Of a stretch of 64,000 bases of DNA, positions 22,297 to 24,131 are shown in pieces (within the stretch, counting starts at the first letter, position 1; each line of letters starts with the position of its first letter). The translations under genes were made by a program, and so were the position numbers. The stretch comes from a virus (taxonomy: Duplodnaviria > Caudoviricetes). The stretch lies in the IMG/VR virus record IMGVR_UViG_3300020576_006644, positions 1 to 64,000 of that record. One strand, 5' to 3'. The notes below the pieces were generated by a model that saw nothing but the letters and a program-made list of their open reading frames with translations, did not search any database and had not been told where the DNA came from.

Positions 22297-22384
22297 TGTT
22301 TTGTTAGGTAGGGTGGCGTTTGGTTTGGTACGGTACGCTAAGGTTCGGTCCGGTTTGGCTCGGCCCGGTAAGGTGATCCAAGGG
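22297..22384 (+). ncRNA. GGY-NN pentamer array 1 (putative guide RNA)
   Basis: 14 in-phase triplets 22307-22374 (12 GGY) plus 2 TGT upstream, then GA-TCCAAGGG and a terminator. Confidence 0.75.
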
Positions 22385-22390
22385 TGGTAA

Positions 22391-22430
22391 ATAGCCCGCT
22401 GGTCCTAAGATCGGCGGGCTATATTTTTTG
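22391..22430 (+). terminator. intrinsic terminator after array 1
   Basis: ATAGCCCGC...GCGGGCTAT stem followed by a T-tract. Confidence 0.75.
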
Positions 22431-22481
22431 TTGTAAAAAACATACGTTCAGTATTTACGAATCTACTCCATTCACGTAAAT

Positions 22482-22545
22482 CGTTCGGCGTGGTGCCCGG
22501 TATCGCCAGATGATGTTGGGTGCAGCAAGGTTTCGCAATCCAAGG
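22482..22545 (+). repeat. degenerate GGY-NN array 2 in the 5' leader of 22554
   Basis: CGT TC GGC GT GGT GCCC GGT AT CGC CA GAT GA TGT TG GGT GC AGC AA GGT TT CGC AA TCCAAGG. Confidence 0.55.
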
Positions 22546-22553
22546 AGTTTTAC

Positions 22554-23171
22554 GTGAAGATAGACAATCGTAGTATTGAAGTAGAGATCACCGGATCGCG
22601 TCCCGGGATGTTGATGAACGCTTTCACCGACAGCGTGATGGCGAGCATCGAGAAGGGGAGTAGCGGCGCGGTCAAAGCGCGCAATCAGCTCACCCCGCGG
22701 GAGGCGGCGACAAAAAAGATCTACTGGACGGACGAGGCGACTCCGCGTCCCTTCATCCCTTCCGCTAATGTCCTGGCGTGCCTCGTGCGCGCCGGCAGCA
22801 TGATCAAGGTCGGGCGGACCAAGCTATCCACTATGAAGTCCTCGCTCATCCCAGCGGCGGTAGAGATCGTCGAGATGCAGCTGCCGATCTTCAAGCCGGG
22901 TACGAAGATCATGGCTGACTACGAGGTGGACACCCGCGGCGTGGTGAACCCGGCCACCGGCGGGCGCATGGTCTGCCACCGCCCGCTGTTCCACTTCTGG
23001 CAGCTTCGCTTTTCGCTCACCCACGACACCGAGATGCTGGACGCGGCGATCGTGCGCGAGCTGTTCGATATCGCGGGCTCCAAAATCGGCCTCGGCGACT
23101 TCCGCCCCGACCGGCGTGGTCCGTTCGGACGGTTCACCGTGACGCTGTGGAGCCCTGAGAAGAAAAAGTAG
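22554..23171 (+). CDS. RAMP/Cas7-like RNA-binding protein associated with GGY-NN arrays
   Basis: 205 aa; N-terminal strand IEVEITGSRPGMLMN, FIPSANVLACL helix, HRPLF..WQLRF, and C-terminal Gly loop AGSKIGLGDFRP..GPFGRF, as in RAMP folds; AAGGAG RBS. Confidence 0.7.
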   Translation: MKIDNRSIEVEITGSRPGMLMNAFTDSVMASIEKGSSGAVKARNQLTPREAATKKIYWTDEATPRPFIPSANVLACLVRAGSMIKVGRTKLSTMKSSLIPAAVEIVEMQLPIFKPGTKIMADYEVDTRGVVNPATGGRMVCHRPLFHFWQLRFSLTHDTEMLDAAIVRELFDIAGSKIGLGDFRPDRRGPFGRFTVTLWSPEKKK

Positions 23172-23187
23172 TAAAGTCGGTTTACTT

Positions 23188-23290
23188 GGCAGAGTGGGGC
23201 TAGCTACTGTTCGGTACGGTATAGCCTGGCATTGCGTGGTGTGGTACGGCCCGGTCCCGTCAGGCGGGGTTTGGTGTGGTAATCCAAGGG
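23188..23290 (+). ncRNA. GGY-NN pentamer array 3 (putative guide RNA)
   Basis: 19 in-phase triplets (13 GGY) with 18 NN, ending AA-TCCAAGGG. Confidence 0.78.
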
Positions 23291-23324
23291 TAACAACCCA
23301 ATGGCTGTGAGGTATAACTACTTC

Positions 23325-24131
23325 ATGGCCATTGGTGCATTTGGGGTATCTCCCTACGGAATTTCCCCGTTTGGCGGCGTCGTCACCATCTCGATTCTGG
23401 AGTGCTACCCGCTCGGCAGTCGGTCGCTCTACGCTCGCTTCAACACCGAGCCCCTCGACAGGAGCCCCGTCTCCGACGGCGACTGCCAAAATCGCAAGAC
23501 TTGGGATTTAACCCGCGACGATACCGGCGAACGCATCGAGGTGATCGGCGCGATTCGGCTGCGGCTACCCGAGGAGCGAAAACTCGTTTTGCTCTCGAAC
23601 CTCGGCCCGTTCGCCGTCCAGCACACCCTGCGCGGCAGCCGCCTCAAGACCTCGGGGAGGCTGCCGGCGGCGCCGCCCACCATGGTCACTTTCCAGGGGG
23701 TCGACGTGGACAAGCCCAGCTTCGGCCCGGCCTCCCGGCGCCCGCGGATCGTGGACCTGCGCAACGACAGCTTCTTCGGGGAGGGGGTGGCGCTGCGCAC
23801 CGACTCGGGCGGCAGCTACGCCACGCAGACCGGGGCGAGCGGCCTCCGCAAGCGCATTCTCCGCATCGTCACCACGCCGCTCGGCTCAGACCCGGCCGAC
23901 CCGTCGTTTGGGTGCCTGCTGGCGCTCGGGGAGCTGATCCGCGACCCGGCCGGGCAGAAAGCGCTCGTGCTGGCGCAGGTGGTGCGCGACCCGGAGGTGG
24001 CGTCGGCCACGGTGTCGCTGGAGGTGAAGGATGAGGGGGTCGCCTACTTGACGGTGAAGGCGAAGATGACGGACGGGCGGCAGGACGTGGCCACCCTGGC
24101 GGTGGGGGATGCGGGGGTCAGTCTGGCTTAG
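23325..24131 (+). CDS. baseplate wedge protein with C-terminal gp25/gpW-like domain
   Basis: LRKRILRIVTTPLGS...PSFGC...VVRDPEV motif; TATAAC 6 nt before the ATG. Confidence 0.7.
   Translation: MAIGAFGVSPYGISPFGGVVTISILECYPLGSRSLYARFNTEPLDRSPVSDGDCQNRKTWDLTRDDTGERIEVIGAIRLRLPEERKLVLLSNLGPFAVQHTLRGSRLKTSGRLPAAPPTMVTFQGVDVDKPSFGPASRRPRIVDLRNDSFFGEGVALRTDSGGSYATQTGASGLRKRILRIVTTPLGSDPADPSFGCLLALGELIRDPAGQKALVLAQVVRDPEVASATVSLEVKDEGVAYLTVKAKMTDGRQDVATLAVGDAGVSLA

What the first reader, a model, noticed from the sequence alone, without database searches (positions are those of the whole stretch)
22297..23414. Candidate RNA-guided system: RAMP/Cas7-like protein with GGY-NN arrays that spell a gapped, wobble-skipping code
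Seen: a 205-aa ORF with RAMP-type elements (N-terminal strand, xIPSxxxxxxL helix, C-terminal GLGDFRP..GPFGRF Gly loop) sits between the spike and wedge genes. Three 5-nt-periodic arrays surround it, each a near-constant GGY triplet plus a variable NN and each ending in ATCCAAGG. Array 1 is followed by an intrinsic terminator. The NN values carry information: read as a reverse complement with one skipped base between pairs, arrays 3 and 1 match codon positions 1-2 of the adjacent genes (next two findings). Inference: the protein oligomerises on the RNA, one subunit per pentamer, binding GGY and presenting NN to pair with 2 of every 3 target bases. Such a guide would ignore synonymous third-position changes. 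No nuclease or cas1/cas2 lies nearby, so the output may be silencing or a roadblock. This resembles what I recall being reported recently as phage 'VIPR' GGY/NN systems; I cannot verify that, so its novelty needs checking.
Basis: partly seen in the sequence, partly recalled or inferred. Interest (0 to 1): 0.97.

Follow-up and report, generated by a model that had tools for sequence, protein, structure and literature searches.

The report
Phage VIPR cassette targeting sibling alleles
This is a genuine copy of the VIPR RNA-guided DNA-silencing system published in 2026, and its guide RNAs spell the versions of the two neighbouring baseplate genes carried by sibling phages that lack the cassette, so it looks like a linked weapon-plus-immunity block.

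Summary
ORF 22554-23171 encodes a 205-aa Cas7-like RAMP. It matches the solved SUSP1 Vipr protein (PDB 36pp; profile E 1.3e-12, full length) and folds like Csm3.

Three co-oriented NN-GGY pentamer arrays flank it. A fourth, which this finding does not list, lies on the minus strand at 36451-36524. All four end in the same 9-nt tail.

This is a member of the VIPR family (three bioRxiv preprints, April-October 2026), so the system itself is not new. It has no vap gene.

What this locus adds:
- The block 22031-23405 is a lower-GC mosaic that replaces 308 bp in a near-identical cassette-free relative (L004).
- Guides 1 and 3 match that displaced DNA under the 1-nt-skip rule, in wobble register, at 24/26 and 29/30 positions. 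The phage's own recoded gene ends match at only 18/26 and 22/30.
- A relative with vipr at a different site (L001) carries a guide that matches this phage's cassette-free version of that site at 26/28.

This pattern suggests allele-specific silencing of sibling phages. Homing-like spread is possible but unproven.

The scan has already noted VIPR in more than 130 other genomes, and similar guide-beside-escape-allele patterns in several other phages.

The parts
22031..23405 (+). The whole VIPR cassette: a mosaic block with lower GC (47-62%) than the backbone (67-70%). It carries its own spike 3' end, vrRNA1, vrRNA2, vipr, vrRNA3 and its own wedge 5' end.
   Evidence: BLAST against the cassette-free relative L004: similarity stops at 22030 and resumes at 23406. 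The 1375 bp here replace 308 bp in L004. L011 shows the same left break at 22030.
21594..22274 (+). Spike-like baseplate gene. The last ~80 codons (22031-22274) belong to the cassette.
   Evidence: Weak Phage_base_V match, E 0.0044, below the Pfam cut-off. The protein is 100% identical to the L004 spike over the shared part, from L004's start codon (residue 12 here) up to the break, then diverges.
22248..22277 (+). Sigma-70-like promoter (10 of 12 matches) that could drive vrRNA1. Its -10 element overlaps the spike stop codon.
   Evidence: Consensus scan only; function is inferred.
22305..22383 (+). vrRNA1: 14 NN-GGY units (22305-22374) plus the 9-nt tail (22375-22383). Units 1-13 form the guide.
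   Evidence: The guide matches the L004 spike 3' region at 24/26 and L011 at 22/26. Only the 1-nt skip works; z = 7.5-10.
22391..22431 (+). Intrinsic terminator of vrRNA1: a 14-bp stem followed by a T run.
22454..22482 (+). Putative promoter of the vrRNA2-vipr-vrRNA3 transcript, in a block conserved with L001.
   Evidence: My own reading of hexamers with a 17-nt spacer. The block is conserved in L001. The consensus scan did not call it.
22497..22545 (+). vrRNA2: 8 degenerate units in the vipr leader plus the tail (22537-22545). The 3' end of the tail forms part of the vipr Shine-Dalgarno sequence.
   Evidence: The L001 counterpart is in the same register with different NN. The relative L008 has a full 15-unit array at this position. 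No target could be assigned.
22554..23171 (+). vipr: a 205-aa Cas7-like RAMP.
   Evidence: PDB 36pp_D SUSP1 Vipr: E 7.6e-6 with the single sequence and 1.3e-12 with the profile over the full length. phrog_4652 E 5.5e-20. AF2 model pLDDT 85.8. Csm3 top fold hits. 158 homologues found.
23196..23289 (+). vrRNA3: 17 units (23196-23280) plus the tail (23281-23289). Units 1-15 form the guide.
   Evidence: Matches the L004 wedge 5' region at 29/30 and L011 at 26/30; z = 10-14.5.
23298..23335 (+). 8-bp hairpin after vrRNA3. It spans the first ATG (23301), a Shine-Dalgarno-like site and the likelier wedge start at 23325.
   Evidence: Read directly from the sequence. The alignment with the L004 wedge favours the second ATG. 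Function is unknown.
23301..24131 (+). Baseplate wedge gene. The first ~35 codons belong to the cassette.
   Evidence: phrog_43 E 2.8e-5. Nearly identical to the L004 wedge from residue ~37 on and divergent before that.
22089..22126 (-). The phage's own spike allele at the vrRNA1 site, a mismatched 'immune' copy.
   Evidence: 18/26 positions match, against 24/26 in L004.
23367..23410 (-). The phage's own wedge allele at the vrRNA3 site, a mismatched 'immune' copy. It includes a synonymous Ser codon-family switch.
   Evidence: 22/30 positions match, against 29/30 in L004. At the peptide level, score 60 against a null of 35.6 +/- 3.8.
36451..36524 (-). vrRNA4: a solo array of 13 units plus the tail, 13 kb from vipr, between a DUF1064 resolvase-like gene and a 314-aa gene.
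   Evidence: The orthologous array in L001 and L006 differs in its last three NN. It matches a distant DUF1064 gene in L005 at 21/26; the L001 version matches at 23/26.
36761..36798 (-). The phage's own DUF1064 / Holliday-junction-resolvase-like allele at the vrRNA4 site (PD motif region), mismatched.
   Evidence: 16/26 positions match (counted from the codons). The own gene uses an AGG Arg codon where the guide reads CG. phrog_190 E 1e-13.
34771..34811 (+). Site in this phage matched by the downstream guide of the relative L001, inside the 3' end of gene 33997-34890.
   Evidence: 26/28 positions match, in wobble register. It lies in the 174 bp (34738-34911) that the L001 cassette replaces. 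The L007 guide matches at 22/28.

Best explanation
This is a minimal VIPR system with no vap gene, carried by an uncultured ~113-kb high-GC phage.

By homology to the characterised SUSP1 system, Vipr protomers are expected to coat each vrRNA at one protomer per pentamer. The protein holds GGY and presents the NN bases, which pair with codon positions 1-2 of double-stranded DNA and skip every third base. The resulting filament blocks transcription.

What is specific to this locus is the choice of targets. vipr and three of the four vrRNAs lie in a 1.4-kb foreign block that overwrote the 3' end of the spike gene and the 5' end of the wedge gene. vrRNA1 and vrRNA3 spell the two displaced gene ends as they still exist in cassette-free sibling phages. 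The resident gene ends are recoded and mismatched. The cassette is therefore a linked weapon-plus-immunity unit for conflict between closely related co-infecting phages. vrRNA4, left at what seems to be the older vipr site, targets the catalytic-motif codons of a resolvase-like gene of more distant phages.

Shown here: family membership, the arrays, the mosaic block, and the guide-target matches.
Shown in the literature, for other members only: the filament, the skip rule and silencing.
Inferred: expression in this phage, escape of the own alleles, and the competitive benefit.
For: Family membership:
- Vipr homology to PDB 36pp and conserved GGY-contact residues. SUSP1 R138, D177, W178 and R179 correspond to R143, D182, F183 and R184 here, all invariant in 47 homologues (with residue roles).
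- Csm3-like fold.
- 35 of 54 homologue loci in GTDB genomes carry co-oriented arrays, none on the opposite strand, with 0.2 expected by shuffling.

Mosaic block:
- The breaks fall at 22030 and 23406. The proteins are identical or nearly so outside the block and divergent inside it. GC drops within it.

Guide-target matches:
- Matches to L004 and L011 are 85-97%, occur only with a 1-nt skip, give z = 7.5-14.5, and are in wobble register.
- Own alleles match at 69-73%.
- Reciprocal case: the L001 cassette sits at another site and its guide matches this phage's cassette-free version of that site at 26/28.
- vrRNA4 matches L005 at 81-88%.

Published mechanism.
Against: - There are no expression or binding data for this locus.
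- This clade is only distantly related to SUSP1 Vipr, so the mismatch tolerance is unknown. The own alleles at 69-73% may not fully escape.
- The guide cores for vrRNA1 and vrRNA3 were trimmed after I saw the match. The untrimmed scores are 25/32 and 29/34, still far above the null.
- Silencing structural genes of a co-infecting sibling could be complemented in trans, so the fitness benefit is unclear.
- Only two cassette-free relatives, both on short contigs, were available.
- vrRNA2 has no assignable target.
- Most arrays in distant homologue loci show no resemblance to their flanks.
Confidence: 0.85

Rival explanations
1. Self-regulation. The partial matches of vrRNA1, 3 and 4 to the phage's own neighbouring genes are the real targets, and they tune the timing or level of its baseplate and resolvase expression.
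For: For each of three guides, the best peptide-level match in the 112-kb genome is the adjacent own gene. Terminator and promoter placement suggests the cassette already rewires wedge transcription.
Against: Own matches are 62-73% (and the count), below the 80% threshold used in the VIPR preprint, which reports no self-targets above it. Sibling alleles match at 85-97%. The mismatches include synonymous codon-family switches, which look like escape from a guide rather than tuning.
Confidence: 0.05
2. Anti-parasite defence, as in SUSP1. The matched contigs belong to a satellite or defective prophage that has borrowed baseplate genes, not to a competing sibling phage.
For: In SUSP1, most guides hit a satellite that shares structural-gene homology. 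L004 and L011 are short contigs, so their genome type is unknown.
Against: L004 is 93-99.8% identical to this phage over all alignable DNA, including a non-structural NADAR gene. A 12.4-kb contig carrying a target-like wedge allele shows the full syntenic baseplate module. The reciprocal L001 case involves two vipr-bearing phages with the same backbone.
Confidence: 0.07
3. Origin by copying. Guides lie next to their targets' homologues because new guides are made from the DNA that the cassette displaces, not because selection links weapon and immunity.
For: Both vrRNA1 and vrRNA3 targets fall inside the 308 bp that were displaced. No way of acquiring guides is known for VIPR.
Against: No enzyme in the cassette could turn codons into pentamers. 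vrRNA4's best target is a distant homologue (43% aa identity), not a displaced allele. Orthologous guides differ by point changes in NN.
Confidence: 0.04
4. Decayed relic. The arrays are no longer functional, and the matches are leftovers of shared ancestry.
For: vrRNA2 is degenerate. The cassette has no vap gene.
Against: vipr is intact, with all family-invariant residues. GGY is kept while NN changes between orthologous arrays. Tails are conserved at 60-94% Vipr identity. Pentamer arrays share no ancestry with coding DNA, so 29/30 matches under one skip rule cannot be leftovers.
Confidence: 0.02

Closest known systems
Type II VIPR of Escherichia phage SUSP1 (Vipr, vap1, four vrRNAs; PDB 36pp; bioRxiv 10.64898/2026.04.26.720920 and .720927)
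   Same: Homologous ~200-aa Vipr with the same thumb Arg and G-loop Asp-aromatic-Arg. vrRNAs lie both upstream and downstream of vipr. Each has 9-17 pentamer units and an invariant 3' tail. Targets follow the 1-nt skip in wobble register, lie in other mobile elements, and no self-target reaches 80%.
   Different: The relationship is distant (single-sequence E 7.6e-6). There is no vap gene. The tail is a different 9-nt motif with no evident pseudoknot. One vrRNA sits in the vipr leader. The cassette lies inside a baseplate operon. The targets are sibling-phage alleles of the flanking genes rather than a satellite recombinase.
VIPR-null SUSP1-like phages with solo vrRNAs in place of vipr-vap1 (bioRxiv 10.64898/2026.10.15.759431)
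   Same: A guide sits at the locus where rivals carry its target. Self-match scores are lower than non-self scores. Solo vrRNAs occur far from any vipr, as vrRNA4 does here.
   Different: There the guide replaces vipr and borrows Vipr in trans. Here the cassette brings vipr together with recoded ends of both flanking genes. That preprint's main text contains none of the words homing, allele or insertion site.
Csm3/Cas7 backbone subunits of type III-A CRISPR-Cas (e.g. 6xn3_F, 6ifn_F)
   Same: Best structural matches: RRM core, thumb and glycine-rich loop, TM about 0.55. Both oligomerise along a guide RNA and flip bases periodically.
   Different: 10-14% sequence identity. No CRISPR repeats, no other cas genes, no adaptation genes. 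The guide has a 5-nt period with 2 paired bases, rather than 6 nt with 5 paired.
Free-standing homing endonucleases of T-even phages (Seg and Mob proteins; intronless homing and marker exclusion). This comparison is from my own knowledge, not checked in the library.
   Same: Presence/absence polymorphism at one site among near-identical phages. The effector is specific for the empty allele next to its own gene. The resident allele is protected by sequence differences. The flanking sequence is inherited together with the element.
   Different: There is no nuclease in or beside the cassette. VIPR of this kind is known to silence DNA, not cut it. Gene conversion is not demonstrated.

Membership tests
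VIPR system | Vipr protein homologous to experimentally characterised Vipr | tested here: met
   phmmer against PDB 36pp_D gives E 7.6e-6. A profile of 47 homologues gives E 1.3e-12 over residues 2-188 of 202.
VIPR system | Minimal RAMP fold: single RRM core, thumb and glycine-rich loop | tested here: met
   AF2 model with pLDDT 85.8 and pTM 0.81. Foldseek top hits are Csm3 subunits, E 7.5e-7, probability 1.00. The G-loop is invariant in the family.
VIPR system | Residues that hold GGY in the SUSP1 structure (H17, R138, D177, W178, R179) | tested here: met
   From the alignments: R143, D182, F183 (aromatic in place of Trp) and R184, all invariant. H17 aligns with N22.
VIPR system | Co-oriented vrRNA genes of about 9-16 YNNGG repeats beside vipr | tested here: met
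   Four arrays of 8-17 units. Three flank vipr on its strand. 35 of 54 homologue loci carry arrays on the vipr strand and none on the other strand.
VIPR system | Invariant 3' tail after the repeat tract | tested here: met
   The same 9-nt tail ends all four arrays here and the arrays of L001, L007 and L008. The pseudoknot reported for the SUSP1 clade was not seen, and conservation of tail structure was not tested formally.
VIPR system | Natural targets follow the 1-nt-skip rule at 80% or more NN match, mostly in wobble register | tested here: met
   Matches of 81-97% for vrRNA1, 3 and 4 and for the L001 guides. Skips of 0, 2 and 3 give only background. The wobble register was checked by coordinates.
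VIPR system | No self-target at 80% or more | tested here: met
   The best own-genome matches are 21/32, 23/34 and 18/26 for the three long guides (61-69%), at or near the shuffled background.
VIPR system | vap accessory gene next to vipr (typical, not universal) | tested here: not met
   The cassette 22031-23405 holds only vipr, the arrays and the gene ends. The L001 cassette also has no extra gene.
VIPR system | vrRNAs expressed, bound by Vipr, and silencing of matched DNA | not testable with these tools
   Needs sRNA-seq, pull-down and reporter assays.
VIPR system | Assignment to one of the seven published types | not tested
   The type tables are in supplementary data that I did not read.
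CRISPR-Cas (class 1) | CRISPR repeat-spacer array and further cas genes (Cas5, Cas6, large subunit, Cas1-Cas2) | tested here: not met
   No such repeats were found. The neighbours are baseplate genes. There is a single vipr copy in the contig.
Homing-type selfish element | Presence/absence at one site among near-identical genomes, effector specific for the empty allele, resident allele protected | tested here: met
   for this cassette. for the L001 cassette.
Homing-type selfish element | DNA break and gene conversion of the empty allele | not testable with these tools
   No nuclease lies in the cassette. Co-infection crosses are needed.

The most novel reading that the evidence does not exclude
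The cassette is a nuclease-free analogue of a homing element. By coating the two displaced gene ends in cassette-free sibling genomes, the Vipr filaments silence or stall those genomes. Only recombinants that take up the cassette together with its recoded flanks escape. VIPR blocks would then spread through phage populations as RNA-guided 'kill-the-empty-allele' units. The three VIPR preprints' main texts do not describe this logic.
Probability: 0.4. Interest if true: 0.85.

Novelty: new member of a known kind. Interest (0 to 1): 0.6.

Why it matters
The system itself is already published, so this is not a discovery of a new RNA-guided machine. Its value is as a clean natural example of what VIPR guides are selected to hit.

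Here both targets and both escape alleles can be read directly. The cassette's break points are defined to within tens of bases or better (the left one to the base). A reciprocal case exists in a sister phage.

Two things would follow if confirmed. It would extend VIPR biology from phage-versus-satellite conflict to allele-level conflict between sibling phages. It would also offer an explanation for how vipr cassettes move and why they carry pieces of their neighbours' genes. In addition, it provides matched target and escape sequences for measuring the mismatch tolerance of a distant Vipr clade.

Tried and rejected
- Tandem Repeats Finder did not detect the arrays.
- Pfam has no family for the protein.
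- tblastn against 50,697 GenBank phage records found no homologue. blastn of the region found only a 74-bp unrelated match.
- IMG/VR viral contigs hold no relative of the wedge gene and no exact match to the vrRNA3 or vrRNA4 patterns.
- Rfam has no matching family.
- The contigs carrying the closest Vipr (P0003) and the wedge allele P0121 could be listed but gave no DNA.
- vrRNA2: the best matches are at background, so no target could be assigned.
- Perfect self-targeting was rejected.
- The L002 clade (51% Vipr identity) has arrays with a related tail, but its guides show no resemblance to the 20 kb around them.
- Among 69 arrays in distant GTDB loci, only 2-4 resemble their flanks. The flank-targeting logic is therefore recurrent but not general.
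- A tail-to-terminator-loop pseudoknot seemed possible for vrRNA1 by eye, but it is not conserved in L001 or L007, so I dropped it.
It was rerun from coordinates.
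Full report
**The observation**

ORF 22554-23171 (205 aa, GTG start) is present. 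It is flanked on the plus strand by pentamer arrays in the register variable NN plus GGY.
- Array 1, 22305-22374: 12 of 14 units strict.
- Array 3, 23211-23280: 11 of 14 units strict.
- Array 2, 22497-22536: degenerate, in the leader of the ORF.

Each array ends in the same tail. The 8-mer core of the tail occurs only four times in the window, and only four times in the whole 112,623-bp contig. The fourth copy closes a fourth array on the minus strand, 36460-36524, which this finding does not list. No other run of five or more strict units exists in the contig. Array 1 is followed by a 14-bp-stem intrinsic terminator and preceded by a 10/12 sigma-70-like site.

**What it is**

The literature search shows that VIPR systems are published. 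Three preprints cover them:
- discovery, the 1-nt-skip code and silencing (10.64898/2026.04.26.720920);
- cryo-EM of the filament and R-loop triplex (10.64898/2026.04.26.720927);
- phage-satellite competition and solo vrRNAs (10.64898/2026.10.15.759431).

The window's protein matches the solved SUSP1 Vipr chain 36pp_D. The single sequence gives E 7.6e-6. A profile of 47 homologues gives E 1.3e-12 over the full length.

The residues that hold the two guanines and the pyrimidine in SUSP1 are the thumb Arg and the G-loop Asp-Trp-Arg. They align with R143 and D182-F183-R184 here, all invariant in the family.

The AlphaFold model is confident (pLDDT 85.8, pTM 0.81). Its best PDB fold matches are Csm3/Cas7 subunits of type III-A complexes (E 7.5e-7, TM about 0.55). 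The Foldseek copy predates the Vipr depositions. PHROGs files the protein under phrog_4652, function unknown. Pfam has nothing.

There are 158 homologues in the large protein collection, all unnamed. In GTDB genomes, 35 of 54 homologue loci carry runs of six or more strict units on the vipr strand within 2 kb. None carry them on the other strand, and 0.2 are expected by shuffling.

Close relatives keep the tail and the GGY scaffold while the NN bases differ (L001, L007, L008). Membership in VIPR is therefore met on every computable criterion. The one exception is the vap gene, which is typical of the family but absent here.

**Targets**

No perfect self-target exists. I translated the collapsed guides as codons, treating the skipped base as the wobble position. 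For three of the four guides, the best match in the whole genome was then the gene right next to the array. The match was imperfect in each case:
- vrRNA3 against the wedge 5' end: score 60 against a null of 35.6 +/- 3.8.
- vrRNA4 against the adjacent DUF1064 resolvase-like gene: score 44 against 34.6 +/- 3.9.
- vrRNA1 against the spike 3' end: top hit, but not significant on its own.

The mismatches were conservative substitutions. That suggested the true targets are other alleles of these genes.

A homology search with the wedge N-terminus found such an allele (P0123). Its 3-kb contig, L004, has the spike gene abutting the wedge gene with nothing between them.

| Guide | L004 | L011 | Own allele |
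|---|---|---|---|
| vrRNA3 | 29/30 over its first 15 units (wedge 5' end) | 26/30 | 22/30 |
| vrRNA1 | 24/26 over 13 units (spike 3' end) | 22/26 | 18/26 |

L011 is a second, more divergent cassette-free relative. Only the 1-nt skip gives these matches; skips of 0, 2 and 3 stay at background. Shuffled-unit nulls give z = 7.5-14.5. By coordinates, all sites place the skipped base on codon position 3. The one or two units nearest the tail are unmatched in each case.

I trimmed the guide cores after seeing the L004 match. The untrimmed scores, 25/32 and 29/34, are still far above the null of about 20/34.

**The mosaic**

Nucleotide similarity between this phage and L004 is 93-99.8% on both sides. 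It disappears between 22031 and 23405, which stands in for 308 bp of L004. L011 shows the same left break, to the base.

The spike proteins are 100% identical over the shared part, from L004's start codon (residue 12 here) up to the break. The wedge proteins are nearly identical from residue ~37 on. Both diverge inside the block. GC falls from 67-70% in the backbone to 47-62% in the block.

Both guide targets lie inside the 308 displaced bases. The vrRNA3 site ends within a few bases of the right break. Among the resident mismatches are a Ser codon-family switch in the wedge site (derived from the site sequences) and an AGG Arg codon in the resolvase site. These are the rare synonymous routes past a guide that ignores wobble positions.

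**A reciprocal case**

L001 encodes a Vipr 94% identical to this one. There the promoter, leader array, vipr and downstream array sit next to the vrRNA4 region. They replace 174 bp that this phage still has, 34738-34911.

The L001 downstream guide matches 34771-34811 at 26/28. That site is in wobble register inside the 3' end of gene 33997-34890 (z = 12). L007 carries a homologous guide at the same site.

So two cassettes at two sites each carry a guide against the cassette-free version of their own site. Each of the two phages is the predicted target of the other.

vrRNA4 is shared by both phages and differs only in its last three NN. Its best match is the PD-motif codons of a distant DUF1064 gene in L005, at 21/26; the L001 version matches at 23/26.

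**Mechanism and its limits**

By homology, the protein should assemble one protomer per pentamer and bind dsDNA by the gapped code, silencing transcription. This was shown for SUSP1 and P. fulva only.

My reading is that the cassette is a linked weapon-plus-immunity block used against sibling phages. Whether it also drives its own spread is inference. One possible route is that filament-bound DNA stalls replication and is repaired from the cassette-bearing genome.

The weak points are:
- there are no expression data;
- the mismatch tolerance of this clade is unknown;
- identical baseplate proteins could be supplied in trans;
- the sample of relatives is small;
- vrRNA2 has no target;
- the flank-targeting pattern recurs in only a few distant loci, such as L024, and not at all in L002.

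**Comparison and novelty**

The nearest known system is the type II VIPR of SUSP1. The nearest known logic is the solo-vrRNA replacement of vipr in SUSP1-like phages and, from my own knowledge, free-standing homing endonucleases of T-even phages.

The words homing, allele and insertion site do not occur in the two VIPR preprints I searched. No other paper in the library mentions vrRNAs in substance.

The scan's own notebook shows VIPR noted in more than 130 other genomes. It also shows the guide-beside-escape-allele pattern in several other phages. I read those notes only after reaching the same reading here, and I did not test them.

**Verdict**

This is a real new member of a known, recently published family. 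It is a particularly clear example of allele-targeting cassette logic that the preprints do not spell out.

Noticed in passing
window 19455-21560: A 2.1-kb segment absent from L004 but present in L011. It holds a 572-aa minus-strand ORF (19826-21544) matching phrog_1735, function unknown, E 6e-88. This is another presence/absence block just upstream of the spike gene.
   Followed up: partly
window 36559-36590 (minus strand) and 22436-22459: The promoter regions of vrRNA4 and of the vrRNA2-vipr unit each begin with a CTGAAC-type box or half-box followed by a TTGC/TTTACG -35 element. Earlier notes on this genome describe this box as a genome-wide operator. If so, the vrRNAs would share the phage's own regulatory circuit.
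   Followed up: no
window 22391-22431 and 23298-23335: The vrRNA1 terminator sits between spike and wedge, so the cassette should cut the baseplate operon. The wedge gene may now depend on the vipr promoter. A hairpin spans its likely ribosome-binding site and start codon.
   Followed up: no
L033:1870-1924 and L033:3062-3093: In a Magnetococcales MAG, a guide just upstream of vipr matches a site about 500 bp downstream of vipr at 18/22 (82%). The match is in wobble register for the plus-strand ORF 2591-3457. This is a possible self-target, or a target in an accessory gene.
   Followed up: partly
L024:1887-1966 and L024:1681-1727: In a Planctomycetaceae MAG, a 16-unit guide that starts 6 nt after the stop of the upstream gene matches that gene's 3' region at 23/32 in wobble register (z about 6). 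This is the same guide-beside-diverged-allele pattern as in this window.
   Followed up: partly
L002:9540-10920: A 138-kb metagenomic contig with a Vipr 51% identical to this one carries about three vrRNAs upstream and two or three downstream. Their units are looser (NN-x-G-Y) and the tail variant is shorter, lacking one pentamer of the tail seen here.
   Followed up: partly
L035, L049, L054, L055, L059 (GTDB loci): Some distant homologues sit beside very long runs of arrays: 7-14 called arrays within 2 kb, some of 20-28 units. These are far larger guide sets than in this phage.
   Followed up: no
window 36580-37074 (minus strand): The 165-aa protein is a DUF1064 / PD-(D/E)xK resolvase-like nuclease (phrog_190, E 1e-13). 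It has a Cys-rich N-terminal extension not covered by the family model.
   Followed up: no
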